A stretch of 64,000 bases of DNA from Spironucleus salmonicida (GCF_000497125.1 NC_090604.1:268651-332650), one strand, 5' to 3'; counted from the stretch's first letter, positions 5,643-51,100 are shown. Notes: generated by a model not told the origin, from the sequence alone. Translations and numbers: made by a program.

Positions 5643-7350
5643 TGCAGGAAATGCTACCAAGGTTAGCTTCAGTGCTATATTGAATACAGCCGTTTACTTT
5701 ATTGTATTAGGATGGCGTTTAATAGTTTTAGTTTTGAATAGTTATATTTAGTTGGTTATTTAGTATTTAGATAATATTTCCTAATACAATTATAAGTAGT
5801 AAAATATTTACTACTCATTCCCAAGTAAATAATGATTAATATAATATATGTTACATGTACAAAAATAAAAATCAATAACTGAAGCTTTAATTATGTTAAT
5901 ATTAATTATAATAGTTATATATTAATTAATTTATCGAGTTTCTGTGTAATAGGGTAATACATAATATTATAGGAAAAGGAAAATGAAAAGGTAAATTGTA
6001 TGTATTATCCAAAACTTATCAGGTTTAATCCTAAAAGTGTTATGATTTTAACATATTATAATATTTATATATAAAAATCTTTTTTTCATTTAATTGAAGT
6101 TTATCCATTCTCAACTAAGTCTATGAAATATTAAAACGTATATTACTTAAATTTTACAAATTTAGTTATTAAGCCTTAGATCATATCATAGATGGTATAA
6201 GGATAGTAGAAAGTGAAAGTTCCTACCCAATAATGTAGTCAGTGAACAAACCTATCTCTCTCACTACAGGTCATAGAAATACTAAAATTTAGTTAATGCT
6301 AGCATTGCTACTTTAGGAAAGCATGTGATAGATAAGCTAATGATAAAGTAAGGTTTAGTAATATTCTGGCATACTGTGCTGCAAGGTGAATGCATGTATA
6401 GACTCAAGGCTGATTAATGGGGTACATGGGATCTGAATAGAAGTGGTGTCAACACCTATTACTACATCTTAACTGAACCGTAAGTAGAAACTTACATATT
6501 AGTAGTAGGAAACTAGAATTTAGGATGCTATCAGTGAAAACATACCAACAGAAGAATATCGTACCGGATAAACTTCTGATACCTCGGGAGTATCGAGCAT
6601 GGATACTAGCACGGGCTCTGGTACGGTCCGGAGTGGCTGGTATGGTCAGCCTATTTAGGTATCAGGCTAGCCGAGAAGAAGTAATTGAGATCATATTAGC
6701 CATTTTCACCAATCTTTCAATTTAGCATATTAGAATGACATAAATATTTTTGAATTTTGCAGCTATGTTAGTCTAAATAGTATCCGAATAAATTATTCGC
6801 TACTATTTTAAAATATGAATTATTTTATTATACTCGAATAATATTGTTAGCTTCGGTCAGCATAAAGTTGGTTTGAGTAGTACTTATGTTTAAATACCCA
6901 TAAGTCCAACTATTACCAGCAATCGGGTATTTAGTAAACTTACTGCTATTTCTGCAATCACAGGGGTATTATATAATATATGGATTTTTTCACTTTTAGT
7001 TTTTGCAGTATTATATTAGTATGCACAACTATTATAAACTCAATTTAAAGATTTGCGTGTTTTAAAGATTATAAGTTACTACGCACTTTGCATAAACTAT
7101 TATAACACCATTCATGCCTATAATAACAATAACATCACCATTTCTTTTGTTAAATCTACTGCGATTTCTCTACAACTACTTTAAGTAAATTTTACTAAAT
7201 TATACTTATTTGGACAATATCAATTCCTCATTTAATAGTAAACGCTATCCATAAAATATTTCACTTCCACTTCAATAGTGAAAAACACGAAACTGCAATC
7301 CTCGGTAATATTCACAGTTATACTGTAGTTATCTTTTCACTTCTATGAAA
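5643..7350 (+). repeat. ~1.7-kb upstream repeat 'U' shared by all four large CRMP genes (copies 16964-18658 -, 34310-36007 +, 45578-48608 - expanded)
   Basis: Starts at tgcaggaaatgctacca and runs to the ATG of each large CRMP. Different sequences join at its distal end in different copies. Confidence 0.85.
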
Positions 7351-9516
7351 ATGTCAAACTAGTGTTCTTCTAGCGATAAAAATTCCTGCAATGAAGGTTA
7401 CTTCTGCCCATCAAACGTAGGAACTACTTCTACAGCATGCCTTACATGCAAAAAAGAGTGCGCCACCTGCACAGCAGAGAACACGTGTCAAACCTGCACT
7501 AATGGGAACGTTTTAGGCGGAACCACCTGCACCGCCTGCGTTTCAGGGTAGACCATGAAATGTACCTGCGGGTCTGCTGAGAACTGCTCTATTTGCGATG
7601 TTACTGATCCGACTAAATGCGACGTCTGCGCGAATGGACATTTCATGTCTGGGACTACCTGCACGGCTTGTGTAGCTAATCAAATGGCTCCGTGTACATG
7701 CAGTACCGCTGTTAACTGCGGAACCTGCGCTACTGATACAAGTAAATGCAAAACTTGCATCAACGGATACGATCCAAGCGGAGCAACCCCTTGCCAAACA
7801 TGTAAGGCTAAGTTCTTTGAGGATACTACTACAATTCCTAAAAAATGCACGGCTTGCTCTACGAACTGCACAACCTGCTCTTCTAGCTCTGTTTGCAGCG
7901 CCTGTGAAGATGGATTTTCTATCAAAGATAATAAGTGCATAGCCTGCACTACAAGCTAAACAACTGCCTGTACGTGCAAGGTTGCCAAAAATTGCTAAAC
8001 ATGTGATACTACCAATACGGGCAAATGTTCAACGTGTATAGGAAACTTTGACAAATCTGGAAGCACTGCTTGCGAGAATTGTTTGACAGGATTTTTCAAA
8101 GGGGGCGTTTCTGGGAGTGAAATTTGCACAAAATGCCCAGAGACCTGTGCAACGTGCACAGCAGAAAACACCTGCCAAACGTGTAAAGATGGAAACGTTT
8201 TAAGTTAAAATTTGTGTGTGGCCTGCACTGCAAACCAAATGACTGCCTGCACGTGTACGTCTGCCAAAAACTGCTCAACATGTAAACCTAGTGAGATGGG
8301 CAAATGCGAAACATGCATCAACAATTTTGACCCATCTGGAGACACTCCTTGCGAGAAATGCTTGTCAGGATTTTTCAAGGAAACAAAATCTGCTATCGAG
8401 ACTTGCACAGCCTGCTCTGAGAACTGTACAACCTGCTCTTCTAGTTCCGCTTGCACAGCTTGCAAGGATGGATTTTCGATCGAAAGCAACTAGTGCGTAG
8501 CCTGTGGAGACGAAAACTGCAAAACCTGCCCAACTAACAAAGACGCCTGTACGGCGTGCAAAACTGACTTTTCGCTGTAAAGCGGTAAATGCGAGAAAAC
8601 ATGCACAGCAGGTGACGGCAGCTGCGCCTCGAACCAAATCTGCGACACGATCTGCAAAGACTGCACCAGCAACTGTACCACGTGCAAAGATGCTGTTGAC
8701 AAATGTGTGACTTGCAAGCCCGGCTTTATGTTAGACAGTGAAAAATGCACAGCGTGCCCCAACGGCTGCGCGAACTGCGATGATGATAAAGCCATCTGCA
8801 AGCTTTGCATGGACGACTTTTTCGCCACGGATAAAACCTGTACGGCTTGCACGTCAAACAGTACGGAACAGTGCACGTGCGGTACAGCAACGAACTGCGC
8901 GACCTGCGATACTCCTGATAAAGGAAAGTGCGCCACCTGCATCACCGGCTACAAAAAGGCCACAAATGAAACCTGCTCCGCCTGTGCCGACGGCTACCTG
9001 ATGGTAGATATGGCCTGCAAGTAATGCGAGGCCAAGTGCGCCACGTGCTCCGAAAGCCTCGAAACGTGCGATACCTGCGCCATTTAGCACACCATGAGCA
9101 TCAATTAAACATGCGAGAAGGATTGCACGGGTACACTGGCAGAGGGCAAGGCGTGCACTGCCGAAGCGATTGTGGACTGCGGGAGCAGCAGCCAGGTAAC
9201 TGCGTGCAAATGCGATACTGCTGCAAACTGCCTCTAATGCAATAGTTCGGATAGTAAAAAGTGCGCATCCTGCATGCCAGGCTACAAATTAGAAAATGAA
9301 AAGTGCACCACCTGCGCAGACGGGGCCACCGCCGTGGGCTCATTCTGCTTCCTACAAGGCGAGACGCTCAGCACCAACCTCTCCAGCGGCGCCGTTGCGG
9401 GCATCGTCATCGCTGTCCTGGTCGTTGCGGGGGGAGTCGCCGGTGCCGCTTTCTGGTACATGAAGAAGTCGAAGGCCAACTAGGAGGTGGAGAAGCAGAA
9501 CTTCAACATGCAGTGA
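7351..9516 (+). CDS. Large cysteine-rich membrane protein, CRMP2-type (721 aa), copy B1
   Basis: Code-6 ORF MSNQCSSSDKNSC..., dense CxxC repeats, TM GAVAGIVIAVLVVAGGVAGAAFWY, tail MKKSKANQEVEKQNFNMQ-TGA (in CAGTGA). An in-frame ATG at 7345 is an alternative start. Confidence 0.93.
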
Positions 9517-10313
9517 GAATTTACGTGGAATTAAGTTTGGAACTATGCATATGGCACCCCGTTGAATGGTGATACTTTAGGAGAGCAAACTTGAGAATCT
9601 GTGATTAACAAATCTGGAAAGTTGGTTTCTTATTCATTACCAATCCTTGCTTGCTATTATTCGGATATTTTCAGCATTATTGGGCTAGCAAGTAACGGCG
9701 TATTTAAATGCTGCAAATTTATCAAGTCCTGGGGCTCTGCTAAACTGTTATTCCGCAGCATTTTGCTAGCTTAAATGTTATACTGTGCATCGAATTGCTA
9801 AAACATGCAATGGCCCTTGGAACGGGATGCAACGGATCGTAGACGTTAAATAGAAGTTCCAAGATGAAATTAGCAGGTAATTGGGTACGCGAATGGTAAG
9901 GAGAGAATTTGCAGTTCTAAGCTAATTTTGAATGTTAATGGAAATTTGTAGCTAGACTAAATTTTATGGTAGTTATTCTAGTTTATAGTGTTATGCTACC
10001 ATTCTGTGAGCTACTGTAGACTGACTAAATACAACTATGAGGAGCCATCTGGAAAAGCGAAGATAGAGTATAACTTGGATAAGAAGTTAAGAATTCGAAT
10101 CGAAATAGTTTATAGAATTGTATAATAGAACCGTTGGTTATTTGAAAACGATTATTCGAAGAGGGGAGAATTCAAAAATAATTTTTTATGTATAATTATT
10201 TAACCAGACCCAATGATCTTTATAAACTTCGATAAATAGGTTAAGTGATTATCATATCAAATTATAATTTTTGATAATTTTAAATTATATGGGTCAGTTT
10301 TTAAGTATAATAG

Positions 10314-11250
10314 ATGGAGAACTTCACAAATGCAAAAGTCTTAATTAAAGATAATAATTGTAAAGAATCGGTGTACATTGAAGTAGTCGTAAATAAAATG
10401 ATACTAGAGGTATAAATAAATTTAGTAAAGGCGAACGAATAAGATTACTGAATAACTTAAAAAAGAAGATAAAAGTATTCCCTTAGGGAAATGAAAACAA
10501 ATACTTCTAACACAAATCGGATGCACTTAAAAGCAATCAAGAATATTACAAGTATCTAATAACTAACAAGGAACTAACGTATAAAAATAAAACATACTAT
10601 TAACAAACATAATATCTATTAAAGGATTATGAAGTAGAATCTGCTAAAAAGATTTAACCAATTGCTAGAGATTTGTATTTCTGGTTAATTGCAAAATAAC
10701 TATTTTTAAAATAAATAAAACAGATTGATAAGCAGTAGTTAAGGATCAAGAAGCAAAACCAACTTACAAAGAAGCGATATAGGTTCTGTAAAAATAATAT
10801 ACCTTAGAGGACTACTCAAGGAGGTTATCAAAAATATTGATTAAACTAAAGTAAACTTCAGCCAAGCTAATTATAATAATATGCAATCGTCTTTATTAAA
10901 GTTTGAAGAGGATAGTAAATGTTAAATTTAGATATTATAGTAAAATATTAATGACGAGATATATTTCGTTAAAATTAACAGACAGGCTATTGTATGACAT
11001 GGTCGAATAAGTTGCAGCGTTATCAGAGTACTGTTTTAAGGGTAAGAAATAAGGTGACGTTAGACTGTACAACACGATAGCTATTTTAGACACGATTCTG
11101 TAAGAAAACTAATCAACTTCATCTAAGGTATGTAAGATTTACTTATAAGAATTACTTAATAGAATTTTGAAAAACAATAAACAAAAAGATCTCATTAAGT
11201 TAGTTGAGAATCTATTTTAAATAGTAACAAAACGTTAACATGGTGTATGA
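10314..11250 (+). pseudogene. Decayed copy of ~312-codon hypothetical ORF
   Basis: Collinear with 38950-39888. Has the shared in-frame TGA plus two 1-nt homopolymer deletions (A6 vs A7, T5 vs T6) and a CGA>TGA change. Confidence 0.5.
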
Positions 11251-12350
11251 TGTGAATCTATTTTAAAATTAGTAATAAATTTTATTTTTTACTTCTATAA
11301 TATTTTTTTTATTTTTTAAACTCAATAATAAATGAGAGATACTATTTTTTCTGTTAATGGAAGAATGATTTTATATGCTCTTCGCTGCTGTGGCTTACCC
11401 CATTGATCTATTCCTATCAGAAATCATGGTCTTTGACTTCGAGTAAGTTAAATTGTTATCTGAGATGGTTTTCTAAAAAGTTAGATATTTTGTGCTCATA
11501 TTTTGAATCATAAAATTGTGGTCCTCTTTATGGATGGCCGTTTTGAATTTTTAATATGCTGGAACCACTAATTGTTGACCTTGTTCGGGGTTCCTTCTAC
11601 TAGTAGATAGGTTCAATTAAGTTACAAATGAAATTCAGTTTAGTGGGTTTAGAAAACCTTCAGCATTTTATGGTTCGCGATACAAATTTAAAATATTTGA
11701 TATTTAAAAAAATCTTTAAATAACCTTCATGTGGTACTTAATGATGGATACTACTGAATTAATATAAAAATTGCTAGCTGAAATTAAAATTATTTAACCT
11801 TTGATCTATAAAAATTCACACTATAGATTTGTCTTAATAAAGTTAATATTTATAATTTTACTTTTTTAATAATACTAAAAATATGCAGTCCGTGTTATTA
11901 CTTTTTATTTAAAACTTATTTGCTGAAGCTAATCAATCAATTTAAGTGTTAAAATTTATATTTGACGGAAACTGAGTATTTAATAATGTAAGTTTACTCG
12001 AGAGGATATTTTATAAAATTAGATATTTTTACTATTATATTTAAAAACTTCAAAACTATAAATTTATGGAATGGTAAAAATGCATAAGATGCTTTAAAAT
12101 TAATTCTAATTAACTACTTCTTTCATTGCGCTTTGTTTTTAGTCATATTTATTAATCTTTAAAATAATTTTAAATCATATCCACCGAAATGTGCTAATAT
12201 TTTGAAATTCTTTATCAAACTCAGATTTAATGAAGTAACTTTATATACTATTAAAGATAAATAGCTTGGAAATGAAGTAAATTGAACAAAAAGTATAAGA
12301 TTAAATTGTAAACTATTCCTACTATTATATTTCTAACTGGAAAATGGCTA

Positions 12351-13226
12351 TCACTTCTTGGCCTTCTTGACAAAATAATAAGCTAAACCGCCACCAACTG
12401 CTCCCACCACAATCAATACTGCTACTACAATTCCAGCTACAGCCCCTCCTGAAAAATTAGAACCTTCGCCAGAGGATGATAATGGTAAACAGATTCCAGC
12501 AACTGGTTCATATCCATATGCACAGTCAGTACAATTACCTTGATCATTAATAGTATATCCCGCTAAACATGTTGCACATTAGGTTTTATCATCATTACAT
12601 GTAGCGCATCTAAACATATTTGCACATTTGCACTAGGAAGTAGATGAAGCACTGCAAGAAGTTGAAGTTCCATCCTAGCAGAATTATCCATCAGCAATAT
12701 CATTACAACCTTCAATACATCTTCCGTCAATAGTGGTAACAGGTTTTGCTTTGTGTCCTTCGCATTCTAAGCAAAAGGTAGCAGATGTACAGTAAGCACA
12801 GTCTTCTTAGCAAGGCTTGCAATGTTTAACAGAGAAATCACAATATCCAAGATGCTAAGCATTACAGTCTTTATGATTAGAACATGATTTTACACAGGTT
12901 TTAGATGTTGTCTCTAAAATAAATCCGGCTTTGCACGTAGTACATTAGTTTTCCTATTCTTCACAAGATTTACAGTTACTGTTGCATAACCCGCATGTTT
13001 TTGCACTGGTTAAAAAATAGTTAGCTATGCAAACGGAACATTTTCCATCTTTACACAATTGACAACGTTAAGTCGATACATTGTCTTCACAATTACAACC
13101 ATACCTAAAATTAATTAAATTATCAGCACAAGACTTACAATCAACGATATCATCATCGCTAGTAGGACAATACGTATCTATTTTGCACTTATTCTCACTG
13201 CCTGTACACTGACCACTCGCTGCCAT
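12351..13226 (-). CDS. Cysteine-rich membrane protein, CRMP1-type (291 aa, KKAKK)
   Basis: Code-6 ORF MAASGQCTGSENKCKIDTYCP...[35 protein letters not shown]. Absent from the ORF track because of TAA/TAG codons. Confidence 0.92.
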
Positions 13227-13628
13227 TTTATGTTTGAGATATTTTTACAGATGTATAATATTGTATATATTGAGTTTTATACTATTGATTTACAAATATT
13301 GATTTAATTATAAACAAATGTATATTACTGTATTTTAAAAAGTGCGATCATTTATTATTTTATCAATTTATATGTATATCTAACATATATTTCAAAAAAT
13401 TATTGAATGCATTTAAATATTAATTAAATTGTAAAATCGGAATAATATATATTATTATGAGTAATATGCTAAAATGATAAAAGCTTAATACATTAATTCA
13501 ATTTCTATTCATATTCAATATACTTTGTCCACACATTTCCAAATCTGAAAATAAATAAGTAATTGATAGTATTTTATATTACTCCATGTTAATTTCTTAG
13601 GAAAATCAGAATTTATAATAAACTATAG

Positions 13629-13779
13629 TAGTAAGTAACCAAGACTAAAAGCAACTTTCTGTTGACTCTAGTTTAAAAATGGCGAGGCAAGTTATGATCG
13701 CATCGCTATCCTGAAAATGGATTGGCGGTTTTGAAACTAAAGCCAACGGAAACTTCCTTTTAGTCTTGGTTACTTACTA
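13629..13779. repeat. 151-bp hairpin with ~51-bp imperfect terminal inverted repeats (MITE-like)
   Basis: tagtaagtaaccaagactaaaag... at the left is the reverse complement of ...cttttagtcttggttacttacta at the right. About 6 mismatches over 51 bp; TA on both outer ends. Confidence 0.75.
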
Positions 13780-14824
13780 GTCTTGCAATAATTAACATTT
13801 CTTAAATGATGACTAGAAAACGTGCTAGAAGGAAGAAGATTAAAATATTTATTTAAAAACATAAAAAAGTATGTGCGTGAAATATGGAGATGCCATTTCA
13901 GTGCTGTTTTACATTTTATACTATCACCTTTTTATACCATCACACATTCAACGGTTCTTATAATTTCTCTAAATATTTTTAAGATAATTTTCCATCGGAA
14001 AATATGACTTGTAAAAGCAAGCATAACACCTTAAGACCGAATTTAACTTATTTTGAAATAATTGCCTTTTTACATCTCTAAAAGATGTCTGATTTGGCTA
14101 GGGCGCCAAATTAAATTACAATCTCTAAAGACATAATATTCGAATCTGAATGCTACCTCAACGCGCCTTGACAAGATATTTTTAAATCTGCAAGAAATAC
14201 AGAATGAAAGGTAAATCAAATATATTTTTTCGTTAAAGGGAGACAATTGCTTTCTCAAAATTCTAAAGCTGTAATGTTTTAGACTAACAATCACTATTCA
14301 GACCTGTGTAAAGTTAATTTAATGGTTTTAAAAATATTAGTTATTTTATATTTCGCAACGCGAAGTATAAAGGGCTGATCTTTTAAAATAATCACTCAAA
14401 TTTGGCTGGGCTGAATGGTGACTTGCTGCTGACTGATTTCTGCTAATAATATATCTAGAGATCTATTTCAGTGTAGGAACTATCGAAACTGCTTCCAAAC
14501 ATATCAAAACTCGGCCTAGCGTTACTAATTAAGCCAAAAATATAATTTCACTTTTTATTTTTGTGCTGCTAAATATTAGTGCAAAACATACAGCTGATTG
14601 AATTTAGAGAATTAATTATCTTGGCTACTCCTAAGTTCGCTTACTTAAAAATATCATGTGGGTGCAGATAGTACTTCATCAACCATAGAAATAAATTTTC
14701 CGTAGTTTTAAAGAAAATCTAAGTCGGTTCAGAAATATAGTACTAATTTGTAATGTGTCTATCTGAAATAGTTTCCACTCGCAGTCCACCTTGCCATCCA
14801 TATACTCCAATTCAATGTAAATTC

Positions 14825-16963
14825 TCACTGCATGTTGAAGTTCTGCTTCTCCACCTTCTAGTTGGCCTTGGACTTCTTCATGTACCAGAAAGCGGCACCG
14901 GCGACTCCCCCCGCAACGACCAGGACAGCGATGACGATGCCCGCAACGGCGCCGCTGGAGAGGTTGGTGCTGAGCGTCTCGCCTTGTAGGAAGCAGAACG
15001 AGCCCACGGCGGTGGCCCCGTCTGCGCAGGTGGTGCACTTTTCATTTTCTAATTTGTAGCCTGGCATGCAGGACGCGCACTTTTTACTATCCGAACTATT
15101 GCATTAGAGGCAGTTTGCAGCAGTATCGCATTTGCACGCAGTTACCTGGCTGCTGCTCCCGCAGTCCACAATCGCTTCGGCAGTGCACGCCTTGCCCTCT
15201 GCCAGTGTACCCGTGCAATCCTTCTCGCATGTTTAATTGATGCTCATGGTGTGCTAAATGGCGCAGGTATCGCACGTTTCGAGGCTTTCGGAGCACATGG
15301 CGCACTTGGCCTCGCATTTCTAGCAGGCCATATCTACCATCAGGTAGCCGTCGTCACAGATGGAGCAGGTGCTGTCTGACGCCTTTTTGTAGCCGGTAAT
15401 GCAGGTGCCGCACTTTCCTTTATTAGAAGAATCGCAGGTAGCACAGTTAGTTGCTGCACCGCACTTGCACTGCTTTATCTTGTTTTACGTACAAGCCGTA
15501 CAGGTTTTATCCGTGGCGAAAAAGTCGTCCTTGCAAACCTTGCAGGTGTCTTTATTGTCGTCGCAGTTCGCGCAGTTGTCGGGACATGCTGTGCATTTTT
15601 CACTGTTCAACATAAAGCCGGCCTCGCAGGTCACGCACGTGCTTACTGCGCCCTTACACGTGGCGCAGTTGCCGGCGCAGTCTTTGCAGATCGTGTCGCA
15701 GATTTGGTTCGGGGCGCAGGTGCCGTCACCTGCTGTACATTTTTTCTCACATTTACTATTTTTCACAGAAAATCCATCTTTGCAAGCCGTGCAGGTGTCT
15801 TTGTTAGTTGGGCAGGTCGTGCAGTTTTCGTCTGTGCAGGCTACGCACTTGCTGGAGTCGATCGAAAATCCATCCTTGCATACGGTACAAGCTGAACTAG
15901 AAGAGCAGGTTGTGCAGTTTTCAGAGCAGGCCGTGCAAGTATCATTCCCATCTTTGGCATCCTTGAAAAATCCTGCTACGCATTTATCACAAGGAGTGTC
16001 TCCAGATGGGTCAAAATTGTTGATGCACGTTTTGCATTTACTTGTATCAGTCTCGCATGTTGAGCAGTTTTTAGCATTCTGACACTTGCAGGCAGTCATT
16101 TGGTTTGTACTGCATGGGACGCAGGTACTGTTGGTTAAAACGTTTCCGTCTTTACATGTCTAGCAGGTGTTTAATGCAGTACAGGTTGCGCATTTACCAT
16201 CGCATGCTGTGCAAGTATCAGTACCAGAATCACCCCCTTTGAAAAATCCTACCAAGCAGTTTTAACACGGAGTGCCATCGTTAACATCAAAGTTTCCTAT
16301 GCACGTTTTGCATTTGCCCATCTCACTAGAATTACATGTTTAGCAGTTTTTGGCAGCCTTGCACGTGCAGGCAGTTGCTTAGCTTTCAGTGCAGGCTACA
16401 CATTTGTTGTTTATGAGAGAAAATCCGTCATCGCAAGTTGTACAAACGGAACTGGACGTACAGGCCGTGCAGTTATTAGAGCAGGATGTACATTTACTAG
16501 GAGTTGCAGAAGTATCCTCGAAGAATTTCTCCTTGCATTTCTCGCAAGGGGTTTCTCCGTTTGGATCGTAGTCGTTGATACAGGTCGCGCATTTGCTCAT
16601 ATCATTAGCGCAAGTCGAGCAGTTCTCAGCAGAGTCGCATGTGCAGTTTGTGGTTTACCCTGAAACACAGGTGGCGCAGGTGGATCCACTTTGAACGTTT
16701 CCGTTAGTGCAGCTTTGGCAGGCGGTATCTTCACTTCCTGTGCAGGTAGTGCATTTCGAATCGCAGTCTGCGCAGGCTTCCCCACTAAGATACTTTCCAT
16801 CGGCGCAGGTTAAACATGTTGCATCTTCTGCGGATGTTCCTGTGCAGGTGGCGCACTCGTCTTTGCATTTGATGCATGGTGTGGACGTAGAGGCTACATT
16901 TGATGGACAGAAAGTACCTTCACTGCAGGTAGTTTTATCGCTAGAAGAACACTCATTAGTCAT
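14825..16963 (-). CDS. Large cysteine-rich membrane protein, CRMP2-type (712 aa), copy B2
   Basis: Code-6 ORF MTNECSSSDKTTC... with the same TM and tail as B1. Convergent with B1. Confidence 0.93.
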
Positions 16964-26685: not shown

Positions 26686-26990
26686 TAAAATTTGGAGTGG
26701 AATTTATAATTCTCTCTCATATGATATAATACTATAAAAATTAATAAGGAAAATGCGTTTCCCAAAATTTGCTAATTTTTTTTAAATTGATTACAATTGG
26801 TTCAAATTTGCTCATCAAAGCCCGTAGCCCACATATAGGTTTAGCTGAGCCTTATGTACAGCAATTTCGGGGCCAAAACGGCACCAAATCCAGAAATTAA
26901 TTTATAGAAACTGAAATTTTTACAATACAACTTCTATACAATTTTTTATTGTTTTGAATTTCCAGAGCTCTACAATTAGGTTAGATATTC

Positions 26991-27131: not shown

Positions 27132-27316
27132 ATGCGCTATTCTGCCACACCTCAACTCAGATTTGTCCCGCCCCAAGCAACCCTATAAATCTAACCAAAT
27201 TTCCATTAATTATAGCATAATAACATATAATAGCTCCGTTCCAAAATTTTGTATACCAACTATATAAAATTAGTTTAAATAGTTTATTATATATTATCTC
27301 ATCCTCATTCGTTAAA

Positions 27317-41849: not shown

Positions 41850-42250
41850 TTTATGTTTGAGATATTTTTAAAGATGTATAATATTGTATATATTGAGTTT
41901 AATACTATTGATTTACAAATATTGATTTAATTATAAACAAATGTATATTACTGTATTAAAAAAAGTGCGATCATTTATTATTTTATCAATTTATATGTAT
42001 ATCTAACATATATTTCAAAAAATTATTGAATGCATTTAAATATTAATTAAATTGTAAACTCGGAATATTATACAGTATCATAGGTAGTATGCTAAAATTA
42101 TAAAAGCTTAATACATTACTTGAGTTTCTATTCATATTCAATATGCTTTGTTCACATATTTCCAAATAGTGAAATAAATAAGTAATTGATATTATTTTCA
42201 TTACTACATGTTAATTTCTCAGGAAAATCAGTATTTATAATAAACTCTAG

Positions 42251-42402
42251 TAGTAAGTAACCAAGACTAAAAGCAACTTTCTGTTGGCTCTAGTTTAAAA
42301 ATCAATGAGACAAGTTATGATTGCATCGCTATCGTAAAAATGGATTGGCGGTACTGAAACTAAAGCCAACGGAAATTTGTTTTTAGTACGTATTACTTAC
42401 TA
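42251..42402. repeat. Second, more degenerate copy of MITE-like hairpin
   Basis: tagtaagtaaccaagactaaaag...ttttagtacgtattacttacta; the right arm is partly decayed. Confidence 0.65.
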
Positions 42403-43441
42403 CTCTTGCAATAATGAACATTTCTTAAATGATGGCTAGAAAACGTGCTAGAAGGAAGAAGCTCAAAATAGTTACTTAAAAAAATATGTGCGTGAACTAT
42501 GGAGATGCTATTTAAGTACTGTTTTACATTTTATACTATGACCTTTTTACACCGTCACACATTCGGCGTTTCTTATATCTATCTCTAAATATTTTTAAGA
42601 TGGTTATCTATCGGAAAATATGACACCTAAAAGCAAATATAACGACTTAAGACCGAATTTGAGTGATTTTGAAATAATTGTTTTCTGCATCTCTAAGAGA
42701 TGTCTGATTTGCCTAGATCACCCAATTAAAATACAATCTCTAAAGAAATCATGTTCGAATCGGAATGCTGCCGCAACACGCCTTGACAATGTATTTTTTT
42801 TAAACTGTAACAAATACAGAATGAAAGGTAAATTAAATATATTTTTTTTGTTAATGAGAAAAATCGTTTTCACAAAATTTTAAATTGGTAATGTTTTATC
42901 CTAGCAAACACTATTCAGACCTGTGTATAAATCGGTTTAGTGGTTTTCAAAATATTAGTTATTTTATGCTCTGCAACGCCAATAATAATGGTTGGTCTTT
43001 TTAAAATAATTACGCAAATTTGGCTGGGCTGAATGGTGATTTGTTGCTGGCCGACTTCTGCTAATAATATATCTAGAGATCTATTCCAGTGTAGGAACTA
43101 TCGAAACTGCTTCCAAACATATCAAAACCAGGCCTAGCATTACTAATTAAGCCAAAAATAGAATTTGCTATCTATTTATGTGCTGCTAAATATTAGTGCA
43201 AAATATACATCTTATTGAAATTTACAGAATTAGTTATATTGGCTACTCCTAAAGTCTCTTACTTAAAAATATCAGCTTGGTGCAGATAGTGTTCATCAGC
43301 CATAGAAATAAATTTTATGCCGTTTTTTAAAAAATCTAACTGGGTTAAGAAAGATAGTACTAATTTGTAATTTGTCCATATGAAATAGTTTCCACTCGCA
43401 GTCCACCTTACCATCCATATACTCCAATTCAATGTAAATTC

Positions 43442-45577
43442 TCACTGCATGTTGAAGTTCTGCTTCTCCACCTCCTAGTTGGCCTTGGACTTCTTCATGT
43501 ACCAGAAAGCGGCACCGGCGACTCCCCCCGCAACGACCAGGACAGCTATGACGATGCCTGCAACGGCGCCGCTGGAGAGGTTGGTGCTGGGCGTCTCGCC
43601 TTGTAGGAAGCAGAATGAGCCCACGGCGGTGGCCCCGTCTGCGCAGGTGGTGCACTTTTCATTTTCTAATTTGTAGCCTGGCATGCAGGACGCGCACTTT
43701 TTACTATCCGAACTATTGCATTAGAGGCAGTTTGCAGCAGTATCGCATTTGCACGCAGTTACCTGGCTGCTGCTCCCGCAGTCCACAATCGCTTCGGCAG
43801 TGCACGCCTTGCCCTCTGCCAGTGTACCCGTGCAATCCTTCTCGCATGTTTAATTGATGCTCATGGTGTGCTAAATGGCGCAGGTATCGCACGTTTCGAG
43901 GCTTTCGGAGCACATGGCGCACTTGGCCTCGCATTTCTAGCAGGCCATATCTACCATCAGGTAGCCGTCGTCACAGATGGAGCAGGTGCTGTCTGACGCC
44001 TTTTTGTAGCCGGTAATGCAGGTGCCGCACTTTCCTTTATTAGAAGAATCGCAGGTAGCGCAGTTAGTTGCTGCACCGCACGTGCACTGCTCTGTGGTGT
44101 TTGACGTACAAGCCGTACAGGTTTTATCCGTGGCGAAAAAGTCGTCCTTGCAAAGCTTGCAGGTGTCTTTATTGTCGTCGCAGTTCGCGCAGTTGTCGGG
44201 ACATGCTGTGCATTTTTCACTGTTCAACATAAAGCCGGCCTCGCAGGTCACGCACGTGCTTACTGCATCCTTGCACGTGGCGCAGTTATCTGTGCAGTCT
44301 TTGCAGATCGTTGAGCAGATTTGGTTCGGGGCGCAGCTGCCGTCACCTGTTTTGCAGTTTTTCTCGCATTTACCGCTTTACAGCGAAAAGTCAGCTTTGC
44401 AAGCCGTACAGGTGTCTTTGCTAGCTGTGCAGGTCGTGCAGTTTGGGTCTGTGCAGGCTACGCACTAGTTATTTTAGATCGAAAACCCATCCTTGCAAGC
44501 TGTGCAAGCTGAACTAGAAGAGCAGGCTGTGCAGTTCTCAGAGCAGGCTGTGCAAGTATCATTCCCATCTTTGGCCTCCTTGAAAAATCCTGACAAGCAT
44601 TTCTCGCAAGGGGTGGTTCCAGAGGGGTCAAAATTGTTGATGCACGTTTCGCATTTGCCCATTTCACCAGGTTTACATGTTGAGCAGTTTTTGGCAGACG
44701 TACACGTGCAGGCAGTCATTTAGGTTGTGCTGCAGGCTATGCAATTGTCGTCTTGGATAGAAAATCCATTTTCACATGCGGTGCAAACGGAGCTAGAAGA
44801 GCAGACCGTACAATTCTCATGGCAAGCTGTACATTTACTAGGACTAGCAGAACTATCCTAGAAGAATTTGTCCTTGCATGTTTAGCATGGGGTAGTTCCG
44901 GTTGGATCGTAGTCATTGATGCAGGTGGTGCATTTACTCATATCAGAACTACAGGTCGCGCAATTTTTGAGAGACATACACGTGCAGGCAGTCGCTTAAG
45001 TACTTGCACAGGCAGTGCACGAATTTCCGCTTAGAACGTTTCCATCTTTACAGGTTTGGCAGGTGTTTTCTGCTGTGCACGTTGCACATGTTTCTGGGCA
45101 TTTTGTGCAAGTTTTTGTGGTATCAGTATTCTCAAAGTACCCTGCCTTGCATTTTGAGCAAGGAGGAGTCGCAGAAAAATCATATTCGCCGTTGCAGGTT
45201 GCGCATGTTGCCATATCAGTAGCGCAAGTTTCGCAGTTAACTGCGGATCCGCAAGTGCAGTTCATGGTTTACCCTGAAACACAGGCTGCGCAGGTGGTTC
45301 CGCTTAAAGCATTCCCGTTTGCGCAGGTTAGGCAGGCACTGGCTCCACTTCCTGAGCAGGTTGCACATTTCGAATCGCAGTCTGCGCAGGCTTCCCCACT
45401 AAGATACTTTCCATCGGCGCAGGTTAAACACATTACAGCTTCTGCGGATGTTCCTGTGCAGGTGGCGCACTCTACTTTGCATTTGATGCATGTTGTCGCA
45501 GTAGAGTCTACATTTGATGGACAGAAGTAACCTGCCTCGCAGGTAGTTTTATCGGTAGAAGAACACTCATTAGTCAT
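43442..45577 (-). CDS. Large cysteine-rich membrane protein, CRMP2-type (711 aa), copy B4
   Basis: Code-6 ORF MTNECSSTDKTTCEAGYFCP... with the same TM and tail. Convergent with B3. Confidence 0.93.
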
Positions 45578-46173
45578 TTAGATAGAAGTGAAAAGATGAC
45601 TACAGTGTAACTGTGAATAATACCGAGGATTGCAGTTTCGTGTTTTTACTTATTGAAATGGAAGTGAAATATTTTATGGATAGCGTTTGCTATTAAATGA
45701 GGAATTGATATTGTGCAAATAAGTATAATTTAGTAAATTTTACTTAAAGTAGTTGTAGAGAAATCGCAGTAGATTTAACAAAAGAAATGGTGATGCCTTT
45801 ATTATAGGCATGAGTGGTGTTATAATAGTTTATGCAAAGTGCGTAGTAACTTATAATCTTTAAAACACGTAAATCTTTAAATTGAGTTTATAATAGTTGT
45901 GCATACTAATATAATACTGCAAAAACTAAAAGTGAAAAAATCCATATATTATATAATACATCTATTATTTCAGAAACAGTGTGAAGTTTACTAAATACCC
46001 GATTGCTGGTGATAGTTGGACTTATGGGTATTTAAACATAACTACTGCTCAAACCAACTTTATGCTAACCGAAGCTAGTAATATTATTATAATATAATAA
46101 AATAATTCATATTTTAAAATAGTAGTGAATAGTTTATTCGGATAGTATTTAGACTAACATGGCTGCAAAACTC

Positions 46174-48175
46174 AAAAATATTTATGTCATTCTAATATGG
46201 TAAACTGAAAGAATGCTGAGAATGGCTAATATGGTTTCAATAATGTCTTCTCGGCTAGCCTGACACCTAAATACACAGGATCATACCAGCCACTCCGGAC
46301 CGTACCAGAGCCCGTGCTACTATCCCTGCTCGATACTCCCGAGGTATCAGAAGTTTGGCTGGTATCGTATTCTTCTGTTGGTATGTTTTCACTGATAGCA
46401 TCCTAAATTCTACTTTCCTACTACTAATATGTAAGTTTCTACTTACGGTTCAGGTAACATACCGTAATAGGTGTTGACACCACTTCTATTCAGATCCCAG
46501 CTGTCCCACTAATCAGCCTTGAGTCTATAAATGCATTCACCTTGCAGCACAGTATGCCAGAATATTAATAGACCTTACTTTATCATTACCTGATCCTTCA
46601 CATGCTTTCCTAAAGTAGCAGTGCTAGCATAGAATATATTTTAGTATTTCTATGACCTGTAGTGAGAGAGATAGGTTTTGTTCATTGACTACATTATTGG
46701 GTAAGAACTTTACTTTCCACTATCCTTATACCATCTATGATATGATCTAAGGCTTAATAACTAAATTAGTAAAATTTAAGTAATAGACATTTTAATCTGT
46801 CATAGCCTTAGCTGATAATGGATAAACTTCAATTAAATGGAAAAATATTTACGTCATTCTAATATGGTAAACTGAAAGATTGGTGAAAATGGCTAATATG
46901 GTTTCAATAATGTCTTCTCGGCTAGCCTGATACCTAAATAGGCTGACCATACCAGCCACTCCGGACCGTACCAGAGCCCGTGCTACTATCCATGCTCGAT
47001 ACCCCCGAGGTATCAGAAGTTTGGCTGGTACCGTATTCTTCTGTTGGTATGTTTTCACTGATAGCATCCTAAATTCTAGTTTCCTACTAGTAATACAGGT
47101 TTCCCTTACTTTTCAGTTAAGATGTAGTAATAGGTGTTGACACCACTTCTATTCAGATCCCAGCTGTCCCATTAGTCAGCCTTGAGTCTATACATGCATT
47201 CCCCTTGCAGCACAGTATGCCAGAATATTAATAAACCTAGGTTTAACTTTAGCTTATCTTACATGCTTTCCTAAAGTAGCAATGCTAGCATAGAATATAT
47301 TTTATTATTTCTATAGCATGTGGTATGAGAGATAGGTTTGTTCACTGACTACATTATTGGGTAAGAACTTTCACTTTCCACTATCCTTATACCATCTATG
47401 CTCTGATCTAAGGCTTAATACCTAAATTTGTAAAATTTAAGTAATAGACATTCTAATCTGTCATATCCTTAGCTGATAATGGATAAACTTCAATTAAATG
47501 GAAAAATATTTACGTCATTCTAATATGGTAAACTGAAAGATTGGTGAAAATGGCTAATATGGTTTCAATAATGTCTTCTCGGCTAGCCTGACACCTAAAT
47601 ACACAGGATCATACCAGCCACTCCGGACCGTACCAGAACCCGTGCTACTATCCATGCTCGATACCCCCGAGGTATCAGAAGTTTGGCTGGTACCGTATTC
47701 TTCTGTTGGTATGTTTTCACTGATAGCATCCTAAATTCTAGTTTCCTACTACTAATATGTAAGTTTCTACTTACGGTTCAGGTAACATACCGTAATAGGT
47801 GTTGACACCACTTCTATTCAGATCCCAGCTGTCCCATTAGTCAGCCTTGAGTCTATACATGCATTCCCCTTGCAGCACAGTATGCCAGAATATTAATAAA
47901 CCTAGGTTTAACTTTAGCTTATCTTACATGCTTTCCTAAAGTAGCAATGCTAGCATAGAATATATTTTATTATTTCTATAGCATGTGGTATGAGAGATAG
48001 GTTTGTTCACTGACTACATTATTGGGTAAGAACTTTCACTTTCCACTATCCTTATACCATCTATGATATGATCTAAGGCTTAATAACTAAATTTGTAAAA
48101 TTTAAGTAATAGACATTCTAATCTGTCATATCCTTAGCTGAGAATGACTAAGTTCAATTAGATGGGAAAATATTT
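46174..48175. repeat. Tandem triplication of ~665-bp part of repeat U
   Basis: Units start at ttta(t/c)gtcattctaatatggtaaactgaaag at 46181, 46848 and 47509. AAAATATTT occurs at every junction. Confidence 0.9.
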
Positions 48176-51100
48176 TTATGTTAATATTATATTCATTAGT
48201 TATCATAACACTTTTAGGATTAAACCTGATAAGTTTTGGATAATACATACAATTTACCTTTTCATTTTCCTTTTCCTATAATATTATGTATTACCCTATT
48301 TTACAGAAGCTCGATAAATTAATCAATTTATAAGTAATATAGTTTCAGTTTAACATAAGTCAAGCTTCAGTTATTGATTTTTATTTTTGTACATGTAACA
48401 TATATTATATTAAGCATTATTTACTTGGGAATGAGTAGTAAATATTTTACTACTTATAATTGTATTAGGAACTATTTTCTAAATACCAAATAGCTAGCTA
48501 AATACAAATATTAAAACCTAAAACTATTCAAACCACATTCTAATGCAATAAACTAAACGACTGCATTCAATATAGCACATACGCTAATCCTGGTAGCATT
48601 TCCTGCACAGAGGTAGTAATGACGCATGCAGTAGCAAAATCAAATTATTGCCTAGTTCGTGCATCAGCCAGTTGTTAGCATGTTGTGCTAACTCTATAGC
48701 CTGAAGCAGTTCCGCAAAATGCACAGCTTTCGCGAACCGATTTAAAGCTGTATACGGTATATGAATAAATTCTGCAGCTATTGCGCGCACTTGTGGTCCC
48801 AGACATTTTATCAATACTCCTAACTTTGCGAATTAAAGCCCACTGGTAATACCTAGAGTGCCTTCCAGCATCTACGCGGCATGCCGCAGCTGGATGAATC
48901 CTCAAATGCAAAATTCCAAATAGATGGCACAGTATAAATAAGTAAGCTATTAGGTAGCCGCATCATTGTCCGCTATGCCTATGCTAATAATCCTATTATT
49001 GACTACTGCTCCGCTGGCCAGACACCACGACGCAGGTGTGGTCCAGGAGCACCTAATTGCCTTATTTGTCAAACAATTTAAGAAATAAGAGAGAGTCCCT
49101 GTACTGATCCATTATGCATATATTCTGATGAAGATAATGGGAATGCACGGGCTGCATAGACTCTAGGAACTATCTGCTCTCTAGACATTCATGAGCCCTA
49201 AATCGTTAATCTAGACAAATCTATAGTCTTCCTGGGGTATTTACCCAAATGCTAATAATTCTGAGCATACGTCAAAGGTCCTGAGAAAGGTGAAAATTTC
49301 TGCTTTTTGATGAAATGCATAACAGTAGGTTATCCAGAGTTGGTGTGACATGGATATTAACACTATGTGCCGTCGGGGTGGACTTGCATTTACTTCCTCA
49401 AGAAAAGGAAGAAGTGATGGTACCAGTTGTGAAAGAATACATGGACAAAAGTTCTAAGTGGACTTAAATGTTATTTTAGCGATGTATTACTCGTCACGAT
49501 ATTTCACTGGTAGCAGCTATTTACGGAATACTTGAACCCACCTTAATACGTTTTAATTTGCTAGAACTAATACGATAATACTCGATAATCTGAGATAAAA
49601 TCAGCATGATGTCAAAGCAAGGCATCGATAGATCGATTTACCACATGTAATAAAAATAGAACCATATGAGCAATTAGTAATATATTTTAGTTAAAAAGCC
49701 TTAGCAATTCTGCAAAACTTAACTAAACGCATGCTTTCCACGAGGTTATGTAACAGCAATGATCGTCATGCTTTAAGCTATAAATTTAGAATCTGGCATA
49801 TTTTATGAAATTTAATTCACTATCTTTAGAGTGATTCTATGTCATATAGTATTATTAAATATTTCAGCTTCAGTTTTGCATACATTAGTTATTTTGAGAA
49901 TCGGACTGCATAATATGCAGATGTAACAGTATAACATGTTATTGTACCATAACTTTAAAATCACATTAAAAGTTTAATTTCGTATTCCTGCGCATGGTAA
50001 GATACTAATAGTTCAAATTCATCCAAACTATAGCTTCTACAACTACTATACAATAAAATTATCTCTAAATAACCAAATTCAATCCACAACCACACCATTC
50101 CAAACGTTCTAATCTGATAAATAGCAGTTTATTGCATCTACACCAATATGCTCAACTCCCATTCTCGCGCAACATCTCCCATTCCCTAACGATTAAAACT
50201 GCACAAACCAAACACCCCTAATCACCATGACCCCAATGCCCTCACTACCGCATCCAACCCATTCCTTAAATTATCACCTTAACATCTCTTATACGACGCT
50301 AACTGCCATCTCAGAATTATCACTAAAATGCTCATTTCAACCTCAAATTGCACAAAACGAGATTTGGTGAAAATGGTTATTTTCTGCCCCACGAGCGCGG
50401 AAATGCTTTTCCACAGTCAAATTTGCAACTTCCCGTGCGAAGCATCTGCGTGCAAGGTATGAACAGGGAATAGATCAAATGGTAAGAAATGTTTTTGCGC
50501 CCTCAGAAAGCACACAGCGATGTGTAGCGCCTATTCCGAGCGTGCACGCCCCGTTGAATAGTTGAGCAGTAGCTAGTCGCAAAGAGGCAGAATTGCTGGT
50601 GTAGAAAGTACGCTTGCAACGTTCCACTGGTGTTGTATTGCAAAATTGGGCATGCGGCAGGGCGGAAACTACGGCTAATTCGTAATAATTTGACTGTAGC
50701 TATCTTGCTTAACGTATCGTCTAGAGGGTGAAAATGGTATTTTTTGCTGTTTTTAAACGCTACTGTGCAAAGCTTAAGTTTGAAAAGCCGTTGGCAAAGT
50801 CCCTAACTGGCCCTTATCAGTAGAAGGCGAGGAATGTTAGTACTCAGAATATGAGTTTAATTTGATGCTAAAATTCAAAATTTCATAGTTTGTAGTCAGA
50901 ATAATACAGAGAGTAGTAAATCCGTATTGTATGAACCACATAATTAGAATTAGTATCTTTAAAAAATTTTAAAGATAAATATTTTGATCCAATTTATTGG
51001 CCGCGTTGTCTACCAATTTAGTGGTCGCCCTTGGTGAGTAACCGTTTTGAATTTTTAAATAGGAAAAATATTTTTTCTTGACCTCTCTCTGGGTTACTAT

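What the first reader, a model, noticed from the sequence alone, without database searches (positions are those of the whole stretch)
5643..48608. Nested inverted repeats with a flipped middle: candidate invertible surface-antigen cassette
Seen: the outer flanks (1-7350 vs 45578-54227) and inner flanks (16964-21759 vs 31208-36007) are inverted copies. The 5.3-kb segment M between the convergent large CRMP genes is in direct orientation (9517-14824 vs 38153-43441). A simple palindromic duplication would have inverted M too. M is bounded by ~3.8-kb inverted arms (repeat U plus a large CRMP gene). The gene 5' ends follow M rather than the flanks (B1/B3 start MSNQC, B2/B4 start MTNEC). The two arms of cassette 2 look homogenised (distal U and gene 3' ends near-identical). 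Inference: recombination between the arms inverted the cassette interior in one copy, probably with a crossover in U. This would swap distal upstream contexts and could create chimeric CRMPs. That is a flip-flop route to antigen variation I do not know to be described in diplomonads. No recombinase is visible, so homologous recombination is the simplest mechanism.
Basis: partly seen in the sequence, partly recalled or inferred. Interest (0 to 1): 0.85.

Follow-up and report, generated by a model that had tools for sequence, protein, structure and literature searches.

The report
Flipped spacer in surface-gene palindrome
In the salmon parasite Spironucleus salmonicida, a large mirror-image duplication of surface-protein genes carries a 5.3-kb middle piece that points the same way in both copies, which is best explained by ordinary recombination between inverted repeats and is not shown to be a working antigen switch.

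Summary
The window is Spironucleus salmonicida nuclear DNA (code 6). It contains a palindrome of at least 54 kb. Outer flanks are inverted at 91.7% and inner flanks at 98.7%. Two cassettes each have U, then CRMP2 forward, then M, then CRMP2 reverse, then U'. The 5.3-kb M carries a 291-aa CRMP1 gene and lies in direct orientation (92.7%; only a 155-nt hit on the opposite strand).

An odd number of exchanges between the 3.8-kb inverted arms of one cassette is the simplest cause.

A single crossover in U does not fit. Informative sites read palindromic in the flanks (77 P, 0 D). They read direct in the first 120 coding nt (14 D, 4 P), palindromic again mid-gene (16 P, 3 D), and direct in M (70 D, 0 P). 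U and the gene 3' ends are homogenised, especially in cassette 2.

The genes are gene-conversion mosaics, including a module shared with a paralog on another chromosome.

No recombinase was found. All four genes share the same proximal upstream sequence and 3' ends, so a flip changes little. Short-read contigs could not test orientation.

Inverted VSP pairs and VSP-enriched inversions are already reported in Giardia. Interest is modest.

The parts
1..2090 (+). G1: outer copy of the G element, cut by the window start. It holds an intact 284-aa CRMP1-type gene at 639-1493 on the minus strand (tail ...YYFIKKARK).
   Evidence: 86% to G2 in direct orientation; about 94% to G4 inverted
2091..5642 (.). 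S: outer spacer, found only in the outer flanks. It is an inverted copy of 48610-52139.
   Evidence: outer flanks 91.7% over 5610 aligned columns
5643..7350 (+). U1: upstream repeat of B1, the distal part of arm A1.
7351..9516 (+). B1: intact 721-aa CRMP2-type gene (46 CXXC motifs, C-terminal hydrophobic stretch, tail KKSKANQEVEKQNFNMQ). It starts MSNQC.
   Evidence: (Pfam VSP, 46.1 bits against a cut-off of 31.4)
9533..14808 (+). M1: 5276-bp AT-rich spacer between the convergent genes. It holds an intact 291-aa CRMP1 gene at 12351-13226 on the minus strand (tail VKKAKK).
14825..16963 (-). B2: intact 712-aa CRMP2-type gene, starts MTNEC. It is the only one of B1-B4 present in the public protein collection.
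16964..18657 (-). U2: upstream repeat of B2, the distal part of arm A2.
18658..21759 (+). Inner flank, left side, including G2 (18698-21287; CRMP1-type gene 19826-20680 on the minus strand).
   Evidence: (98.7% to 34309-31208, no gaps)
21760..31207 (.). Unique core (spacer) of the palindrome. It holds a 1410-aa coiled-coil-like ORF (22453-26685, minus), a Myb-domain ORF (27317-27967, plus) and tRNA-Pro (28182-28253, minus).
31208..34309 (-). Inner flank, right side, including G3 (31680-34287; CRMP1-type gene 32287-33141 on the plus strand).
34310..36007 (+). U3: upstream repeat of B3. It is 98.5-100% identical to U4 over most of its length.
36008..38152 (+). B3: intact 714-aa CRMP2-type gene, starts MSNQC. 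Its last ~950 nt are 97-100% identical to B4.
38169..43425 (+). M2: 5257-bp spacer in the same orientation as M1. It holds an intact 291-aa CRMP1 gene at 40974-41849 on the minus strand.
43442..45577 (-). B4: intact 711-aa CRMP2-type gene, starts MTNEC.
45578..48609 (-). U4: upstream repeat of B4. A ~667-bp unit stands three times in tandem here (46174-48175); it is single in U1-U3.
   Evidence: 46174-47511 vs 46841-48175, 93.3%; 46174-46850 vs 47502-48175, 93.5%
48610..54727 (-). Outer flank, right side: S' (48610-52139) and G4 (52140-54727; CRMP1-type gene 52735-53589 on the plus strand).

Best explanation
This is a diverged palindrome of at least 54 kb inside a cysteine-rich membrane protein (CRMP) gene array of Spironucleus salmonicida.

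Each palindrome arm carries one cassette. A cassette is two convergent CRMP2-type genes with their 1.7-kb upstream repeats, which form 3.8-kb inverted arms. These enclose a 5.3-kb spacer M that holds a small CRMP1 gene.

M points the same way in both cassettes, although everything outside the cassettes is mirrored. The most likely cause is general homologous recombination between the inverted arms of one cassette, with an odd number of crossovers. The same exchange could have occurred as a template switch while the palindrome formed.

The arms have since been reshaped by repeated gene conversion. This acted within a cassette, between the cassettes and with paralogs elsewhere, and it has erased the breakpoints.

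Shown: the layout, the intact genes, the mosaic pattern and the homogenised arms. Inferred: that the flip arose by crossover, that it happened in cassette 2, and its age.

I read it as an evolutionary by-product of inverted paralogs in a recombining gene family. It is fixed or rarely changing in the sequenced line. It is not a programmed switch.
For: Layout:
- Flanks are inverted and M is direct.
- With this layout, exchanges A1xA4 or A2xA3 leave M's relative orientation unchanged. Only A1xA2 or A3xA4 flips it (inference).

Site pattern, P/D/C counts:
- flank 77/0/0
- U 12/3/47
- coding nt 1-120: 4/14/0
- mid-gene 8247-8496: 16/3/2
- gene 3' part: 0/2/13
- M ends: 0/70/0

Arm homogenisation:
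- Cassette 2 arms are 98.5-100% alike in most 200-nt windows of U and 97-100% in the last ~950 coding nt. The two cassettes differ by 8-12% elsewhere.

Uneven divergence points to conversion tracts:
- M left part (9533-11500) is 97-100% alike; the right part is 82-95%.
- Inner flanks are 98.7% alike; outer flanks 91.7%.

Other points:
- B2 residues ~197-320 are nearly identical to a CRMP2 on another chromosome-sized contig.
- No recombinase, transposase or RT family was found in 71 of 106 ORFs of at least 150 aa.
- All ten Cys-rich genes are intact. dN/dS for the M CRMP1 pair is 0.54.
- The S. salmonicida genome paper states that CRMP regions are duplicated and GC-rich and suggests gene conversion (PMC9509377 passages).
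Against: - No read-level evidence for either orientation was obtainable. The orientation rests on one published long-read assembly.
- The P and D patches inside the genes mean one inversion alone is insufficient. The order and number of events cannot be reconstructed.
- No outgroup cassette DNA was available, so which cassette flipped is unknown.
- The M CRMP1 proteins are closer to copies elsewhere (88.3% and 91.1%) than to each other (83.8%). This is also compatible with replacement of one M from a third cassette rather than inversion in place.
- Near-identity of cassette 2's arms equally fits a locus that is still flipping. 'Rare or fixed' is therefore a prior, not a result.
Confidence: 0.6

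Rival explanations
1. Active flip-flop. The cassettes, cassette 2 above all, still invert at appreciable frequency in growing cultures by homologous recombination between the arms. Both isomers would then coexist. CRMP2 5' and 3' halves and their distal contexts would be reshuffled, possibly contributing to surface variation.
For: - Cassette 2 arms are 98.5-100% identical over about 1.3 kb of U and 97-100% over ~950 nt of coding sequence. These are good substrates and a sign of recent exchange.
- Alternating D, P and D patches are what staggered successive inversions would leave.
- S. salmonicida is reported to lack Dicer, Argonaute and RdRP, so CRMP control is 'by some other unknown means' (PMC3916229 passage).
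- Nanopore work in Giardia predicted many intra-isolate inversions, with structural-variant regions enriched for VSPs (PMC7048089 passages).
Against: - No isomer was observed.
- The patches can equally come from conversions, including donors on other chromosomes.
- All four genes share nearly the same ~90 nt upstream of the ATG and the same 3' ends. A flip would therefore change expression context and protein sequence little.
- No promoter-in or promoter-out logic is visible.
Confidence: 0.15
2. Ectopic replacement rather than inversion in place. One M, with adjoining arm sequence, was copied in from another cassette of the same family by gene conversion or double crossover. The incoming arms paired in the 'direct' register, which is possible because all arms are homologous.
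For: - The M-type CRMP1 cluster has 5 members. Two are in the window, one is elsewhere on the same 623-kb contig and two are on other contigs.
- M2's protein is closest to the other copy on the same contig (91.1%). M1's is closest to a copy on another contig (88.3%). They are 83.8% alike to each other.
- A 97-100% tract runs in direct register from the B1/B3 3' ends to about 11500. This shows that inter-cassette conversion across the arm/M border does occur.
Against: - M right part (82-95%) and the outer flanks (91.7%) have similar divergence. M1 and M2 can therefore be as old as the palindrome.
- The closer relatives may simply be later duplicates.
- No B-like CRMP2 above 52% identity (best BLASTP alignment) other than B2 is in the protein collection. 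However, B1, B3 and B4 are missing from it too, so absence proves little.
Confidence: 0.15
3. Assembly artefact. The assembler placed M, or the whole gene-M-gene unit, in the wrong orientation in one cassette because the arms are near-identical.
For: - Cassette 2 has identical stretches of about 0.95 kb next to M and about 1.3-3 kb in U.
- The genome paper notes limits set by read length for repeats (PMC9509377 passage).
Against: - The identical stretches are much shorter than typical PacBio reads.
- Diverged gene middles (69-92% between B3 and B4) sit between them and anchor reads.
- M1 and M2 differ by about 7%, so they cannot be confused with each other.
- The authors report checking long-read pile-ups, but only at their two largest repeats, not at this locus.
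- Both M CRMP1 proteins and B2 also occur in the collection under sources that include the earlier annotation.
Confidence: 0.07

Closest known systems
Giardia VSP 'inverted pairs' (G. intestinalis WB: PMC2996952, abstract and passages; G. muris: PMC7641422, passages)
   Same: - Two closely related cysteine-rich, C-terminally anchored surface-protein genes lie tail to tail around a spacer of a few kb.
- Similarity extends beyond the coding regions.
- In G. muris the spacers carry other coding sequences or pseudogenes.
- The authors of both papers invoke recombination or segmental gene conversion in the family.
   Different: - The Giardia pairs are mostly identical ORFs with 2.2-3.8 kb spacers.
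- Here the pair members are 85-88% alike over the gene, identical only in the 3' part.
- The spacer here is 5.3 kb and holds an intact CRMP1 gene.
- The whole cassette is duplicated in a larger palindrome, which is what reveals the spacer's orientation.
- In the passages I read, neither paper reports a spacer inversion.
Flip-flop isomerisation between inverted repeats without a dedicated recombinase. Examples: the dual flip-flop mitochondrial genomes of Babesia microti and B. rodhaini (PMC3546061, abstract); plastid IR isomers (recalled, no call).
   Same: A unique segment is bounded by kb-scale inverted repeats. Inversion by general homologous recombination is inferred. Nested or multiple IR pairs are present.
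   Different: - In those systems both or all isomers were shown to coexist, in equimolar amounts in Babesia.
- Here only one arrangement is seen, the arms are diverged by 0-15%, and the locus is nuclear and low copy.
Large nuclear palindromes with arm-to-arm gene conversion and spacer inversions, as on primate sex chromosomes, and the human FLNA-EMD inversion between inverted repeats (recalled, no call).
   Same: Long inverted arms lie around a unique spacer. Arm identity is uneven and locally very high, as expected from conversion. Inversion polymorphism of the enclosed segment arises by non-allelic homologous recombination.
   Different: The organism and gene content differ. Polymorphism is not shown here.
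Intra-isolate structural variants in Giardia from nanopore reads (PMC7048089, passages)
   Same: It is a diplomonad. Inversions were the most numerous predicted variant class (162, 746 and 234 in three isolates). Several dozen variant regions per isolate were enriched for VSP genes.
   Different: These are predictions from read mapping, with average lengths of 13-29 kb. In the passages I read they are not tied to inverted gene pairs. No cassette anatomy is given.
Site-specific invertible elements (bacterial invertons and shufflons, yeast 2-micron FLP/FRT) (recalled, no call)
   Same: An invertible segment lies between inverted repeats next to surface-protein genes.
   Different: No recombinase gene is present. 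The repeats are kb-long paralogous genes rather than short sites. No promoter or gene-half logic is visible.

Membership tests
Recombinase-independent inverted-repeat flip-flop (homologous-recombination isomerisation) | A unique segment is bounded by a pair of long inverted repeats. | tested here: met
   Arms of 3.8 kb stand at 85-100% identity around M in both cassettes. M has no inverted self-match beyond 155 nt.
Recombinase-independent inverted-repeat flip-flop (homologous-recombination isomerisation) | Both orientation isomers coexist in one population. | tested here: inconclusive
   Four of 4 runs were laid on 29001-49000. They are short contigs, at most 667 nt inside the cassette, with no joints listed. 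They cannot bridge the identical arm stretches.
Recombinase-independent inverted-repeat flip-flop (homologous-recombination isomerisation) | The two arms are kept alike by exchange (concerted evolution). | tested here: met
   Cassette-specific sites (C) outnumber P and D in U (47 vs 12 and 3) and in the gene 3' part (13 vs 0 and 2). A3 and A4 are 98.5-100% alike in most windows.
Site-specific invertible element (inverton, shufflon, FLP-type) | A dedicated recombinase gene lies in or beside the element. | tested here: not met
   Pfam scans covered 71 of 106 ORFs of at least 150 aa. The only families found were VSP, a weak Furin-like repeat, Myb, and weak DUF and Podoplanin hits. The 35 unscanned ORFs are B2 and ORFs in the right arm, which duplicates the left.
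Site-specific invertible element (inverton, shufflon, FLP-type) | A promoter or exchangeable gene part is placed so that inversion changes what is expressed. | tested here: not met
   All four genes keep their own start and nearly the same ~90 nt upstream. Their 3' ~500 nt are at least 97% alike. Promoters themselves were not mapped.
Diplomonad inverted pair of Cys-rich surface genes (Giardia VSP inverted pairs) | Two paralogous Cys-rich TM-anchored genes lie in tail-to-tail orientation around a spacer of a few kb. | tested here: met
   B1(+)/B2(-) and B3(+)/B4(-) are convergent, with spacers of 5276 and 5257 bp.
Diplomonad inverted pair of Cys-rich surface genes (Giardia VSP inverted pairs) | The two ORFs of a pair are identical (14 of 19 Giardia WB inverted pairs). 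| tested here: not met
   B1/B2 are 84.8% alike over 1812 nt. B3/B4 are 87.7% alike over 2140 nt. Only the 3' ~950 nt of B3/B4 are 97-100% alike.
S. salmonicida CRMP-2 (B1-B4) | At least 3 CXXC/CXC motifs, a C-terminal TM domain, and no terminal [KR][KR]X[KR][KR] motif (definition from PMC3916229 passages). | tested here: met
   Each has 46 CXXC and 5-6 CXC motifs. A hydrophobic 19-mer (mean KD 2.48) lies ~40 residues from the end. The tail is KKSKANQ..., not KKXKK. The nearest database relatives are named CRMP 2. TM was judged from hydropathy only.
S. salmonicida CRMP-1 (M and G genes) | CXXC/CXC motifs, a C-terminal TM domain, and the terminal KKXKK-type motif. | tested here: met
   Each has 12 CXXC motifs. 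The tails are ...YYFVKKAKK and ...YYFIKKARK. Cluster mates are named Cysteine-rich membrane protein 1.

The most novel reading that the evidence does not exclude
Both cassettes are live flip-flops. Recombination between the inverted CRMP2 arms keeps inverting M and swapping gene segments at staggered crossover points. This would generate chimeric CRMP2 surface proteins and re-position genes relative to the array. In a diplomonad reported to lack the RNAi machinery that Giardia uses for VSP control, this would be a DNA-level route to surface variation.
Probability: 0.1. Interest if true: 0.7.

Novelty: new member of a known kind. Interest (0 to 1): 0.3.

Why it matters
If the reading is right, the locus is a clean natural record of non-allelic recombination in a diplomonad surface-protein array. 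It shows inversion between inverted paralogs, arm homogenisation, and conversion tracts within a cassette, between cassettes and between chromosomes.

It extends the Giardia-type inverted pair arrangement to Spironucleus. It also gives a concrete locus where long reads could measure mitotic recombination and test whether DNA rearrangement contributes to CRMP variation. How CRMP expression is controlled in this fish pathogen is unknown.

By itself, a fixed inversion in a repeat-rich array is ordinary genome evolution.

Tried and rejected
1. Whole-genome context: no genome is held for this window. The other M-like loci could therefore not be used as outgroups.

2. Public reads:
- One search found 4 runs of one study, all held as Logan contigs.
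- They were laid on 29001-49000 at 98% likeness. Between 264 and 279 contigs per run were laid.
- The longest listed piece was 1678 nt, in the core. Inside the cassette the longest was 667 nt.
- No joints were listed. Contigs stop at the arm/M borders (for example 43099-43435 and 43434-43785).
- This gives no support and no evidence against either orientation.

3. Locating the crossover from informative sites failed. U has almost no P or D sites, and the gene middles align poorly because of internal repeats.

4. Reading the D-P-D alternation as proof of three staggered inversions was rejected as proof. B2 shares a near-identical module with a paralog on another chromosome, so patches may come from outside donors.

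5. M as a mobile element was rejected. M has no terminal repeats of its own. M1 ORFs of at least 150 aa have no Pfam family. M1 matches the rest of the window only over a 90-nt CRMP1 tail at 74-77%.

6. TRF found no tandem arrays at score 100 or above. The 667-bp triplication in U4 exceeds its longest period of 500 and was seen by BLAST.

7. Literature searches listed no paper describing inversion of the spacer between inverted Cys-rich gene pairs in a diplomonad. I judged this from listings plus the passages read in seven papers. Supplementary tables, such as the Giardia structural-variant lists, were not seen and might contain such cases.
Full report
**Identity of the window**

No ORF of at least 250 aa exists under the standard code. 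Forty-one exist under table 6. Exact look-up of window proteins finds them on a 623,396-bp contig. Their cluster mates are named Cysteine-rich membrane protein 1 of Spironucleus salmonicida. Mean G+C is 37.7%, with GC-rich genes in AT-rich spacers. This matches what the genome paper says of duplicated CRMP regions (PMC9509377, passages).

**Observation**

Self-BLAST shows the following order.
- G1 (1-2090)
- S (2091-5642)
- Cassette 1: U1 (5643-7350), B1 (7351-9516, +), M1 (9533-14808), B2 (14825-16963, -), U2 (16964-18657)
- Inner flank with G2 (18658-21759)
- A unique 9.4-kb core
- The mirror image: inner flank with G3 (31208-34309)
- Cassette 2: U3 (34310-36007), B3 (36008-38152, +), M2 (38169-43425), B4 (43442-45577, -), U4 (45578-48609)
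- S' and G4 (to 54727)

Outer flanks are inverted copies at 91.7% over 5610 columns. Inner flanks are inverted copies at 98.7% over 3102 columns with no gaps.

M1 and M2 align end to end on the same strand at 92.1-92.7%. On the opposite strand there is a single 155-nt hit at 72%.

The left arm runs off the window, so the palindrome may be larger.

**Genes**

B1-B4 are intact ORFs of 711-721 aa. Each has 16% Cys, 46 CXXC motifs and a C-terminal hydrophobic stretch. The tail is KKSKANQ..., which lacks the CRMP-1 motif. B1 matches Pfam VSP above its cut-off, at 46.1 against 31.4 bits. The nearest database relatives are named CRMP 2.

Each M holds an intact 291-aa CRMP1 gene on the minus strand, with tail VKKAKK. 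It is co-directional with B2/B4 and convergent with B1/B3. Each G element holds an intact 284-aa CRMP1-type gene.

For the two M CRMP1 genes, dS is 0.158 and dN is 0.086, giving a ratio of 0.54. That ratio is below 1, the value expected for unconstrained sequence, so they behave as coding genes.

**Fine structure of the arms**

I aligned the four arms in gene orientation and classified each variable column.
- P: A1=A4 and A2=A3, the palindromic relation.
- D: A1=A3 and A2=A4, the direct relation.
- C: A1=A2 and A3=A4, cassette-specific.

| Region | P | D | C | Singletons |
|---|---|---|---|---|
| Flank beyond U | 77 | 0 | 0 | |
| U | 12 | 3 | 47 | 153 |
| Coding nt 1-120 | 4 | 14 | 0 | |
| Next ~780 nt (poorly alignable internal repeats) | 16 | 19 | 91 | |
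| Mid-gene, 8247-8496 | 16 | 3 | 2 | |
| Last ~1 kb of coding sequence | 0 | 2 | 13 | 92 |
| Ends of M | 0 | 70 | 0 | |

The printed alignment confirms both the D patch at the start codons and the P patch mid-gene.

Cassette 2's arms are 98.5-100% alike in most 200-nt windows of U and 97-100% over the last ~950 coding nt. Cassette 1's arms are 84-100% alike in U.

**What this implies**

- With this layout, only an exchange between the two arms of one cassette changes M's orientation relative to both flanks. Exchanges A1xA4 or A2xA3 reproduce the same arrangement. This is an inference from the layout.
- The breakpoints cannot be placed. U and the gene 3' ends have been homogenised, so they carry almost no P or D sites.
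A single crossover in the gene 3' end would leave the gene start P. The D patch contradicts that. At least two or three exchanges are needed, whether staggered inversions or conversions.
- I do not take the alternation as proof of repeated flipping. The genes are family-wide mosaics. B2 residues ~197-320 are almost identical to a CRMP2 (P0014) on a 1.88-Mb contig, although the proteins are only 52% alike in the best BLASTP alignment.

**Uneven divergence**

M's left 2 kb (9533-11500) is 97-100% identical between the cassettes. The right 3.3 kb is 82-95% identical. The high-identity tract continues into the B1/B3 3' ends. This is a conversion tract in direct register across the arm/M border.

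Inner flanks (98.7%) are much more alike than outer flanks (91.7%).

**More than two copies of M**

The M CRMP1 proteins are 83.8% alike to each other. M1's is 88.3% alike to a copy on another contig. M2's is 91.1% alike to a third copy on the same contig. The M family therefore has at least five members. Replacement of one M from another cassette is a live alternative to inversion in place.

**Mechanism and function**

No recombinase, transposase or reverse-transcriptase family was found in 71 of the 106 ORFs of at least 150 aa. The 35 unscanned ORFs are B2 and ORFs of the right arm, which duplicates the left. The only other families found are a Myb domain in the core and weak hits.

As a switch the design is unconvincing. 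All four genes keep their own start codon. They share nearly the same ~90 nt upstream and nearly the same last ~500 nt. A flip would mainly change distal context. Chimeras formed in the identical 3' part would encode the same protein.

**Test of orientation**

No genome is held. The only public runs found are four from one study, stored as short contigs. Laid on 29001-49000, they give pieces of at most 667 nt inside the cassette and no joints. They say nothing about orientation.

A misassembly seems unlikely. The identical stretches (about 0.95 kb and 1.3-3 kb) are short for PacBio reads and are separated by diverged gene middles. I could not check this directly. The authors' stated pile-up inspection concerned their two largest repeats, not this locus.

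**Comparison with what is known**

- Giardia intestinalis WB has 14 identical inverted VSP pairs, head to head or tail to tail, with 2-4 kb spacers. Flanking identity runs to an abrupt divergence point (PMC2996952, abstract and passages).
- G. muris has seven identical pairs whose spacers carry coding sequences or pseudogenes. [quoted passage not shown]
- Nanopore mapping in Giardia predicted 162-746 intra-isolate inversions per isolate, with several dozen variant regions enriched for VSPs (PMC7048089, passages).
- Flip-flop between inverted repeats without a dedicated recombinase is established elsewhere, for example in the dual system of Babesia mitochondrial genomes (PMC3546061, abstract).
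- My six searches listed no paper that describes inversion of the spacer of such a pair in a diplomonad. Supplements were not available.
- The S. salmonicida papers I read in passages mention CRMP arrays, duplicated regions and possible gene conversion. The words 'inverted' and 'palindrom' do not occur in them.

**Verdict**

The core inference, that recombination between the arms turned the cassette interior, is the best explanation at about 0.6. Ongoing flip-flop (0.15), ectopic replacement (0.15) and misassembly (0.07) remain open.

The proposed single crossover in U and the antigen-switch role are not supported.

This is a new example of a known kind of event in a known kind of gene arrangement. 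It is of moderate interest, mainly as a well-defined locus for a long-read test.

Noticed in passing
46174-48175: A ~667-bp piece of the U repeat stands three times in tandem in U4 (93-94% between copies). It is single in U1 (6081-6757), U2 (17554-18230) and U3 (34742-35412). TRF missed it because the period exceeds 500.
   Followed up: partly
9533-11500 vs 38169-40140; 11500-14808 vs 40140-43425: M is not uniformly diverged. The left ~2 kb is 97-100% identical between cassettes and the right ~3.3 kb is 82-95%. The high-identity tract continues into the B1/B3 3' ends, which suggests a recent inter-cassette conversion in direct register.
   Followed up: partly
18658-21759 vs 34309-31208; 1-5642 vs 54227-48610: Inner palindrome flanks are 98.7% identical with no gaps, but outer flanks are only 91.7%. 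Either conversion is stronger near the palindrome centre or the parts have different ages.
   Followed up: no
B1 7351-9516, B3 36008-38152, B4 43442-45577: These three ORFs are intact under code 6. They are absent from the public protein collection both by exact look-up and by homology search with B2, where the nearest non-self hit is 52%. They may be unannotated or marked as pseudogenes in the deposited annotation.
   Followed up: partly
B2 14825-16963 (residues ~197-320): This module is almost identical to part of a 1110-aa CRMP2 (P0014) on a 1.88-Mb contig, while the rest of the two proteins is far less alike. That is evidence of module exchange between chromosomes.
   Followed up: partly
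12351-13226 and 40974-41849: The two M-borne CRMP1 proteins are 83.8% alike to each other. They are closer to copies elsewhere: 88.3% to P0008 on another contig and 91.1% to P0010 on the same contig. dN/dS between the two is 0.54.
   Followed up: partly
21760-31207: The unique core of the palindrome holds a 1410-aa Q-rich coiled-coil-like ORF (22453-26685, minus), a Myb-domain ORF (27317-27967, plus; Pfam 42.9 bits) and tRNA-Pro(TGG) at 28182-28253 (minus).
   Followed up: no
57410-57493; 60291-61250: Right of the palindrome lie tRNA-Ser(AGA) and another intact 319-aa CRMP1-type gene. That gene has an 89%-identical paralog elsewhere on the same contig.
   Followed up: no
1-2090, 18698-21287, 31680-34287, 52140-54727: The G element occurs four times. 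G1 and G2 flank cassette 1 as direct repeats at 86%. G3 and G4 do the same around cassette 2. Each cassette therefore sits between direct repeats as well as carrying inverted arms.
   Followed up: no
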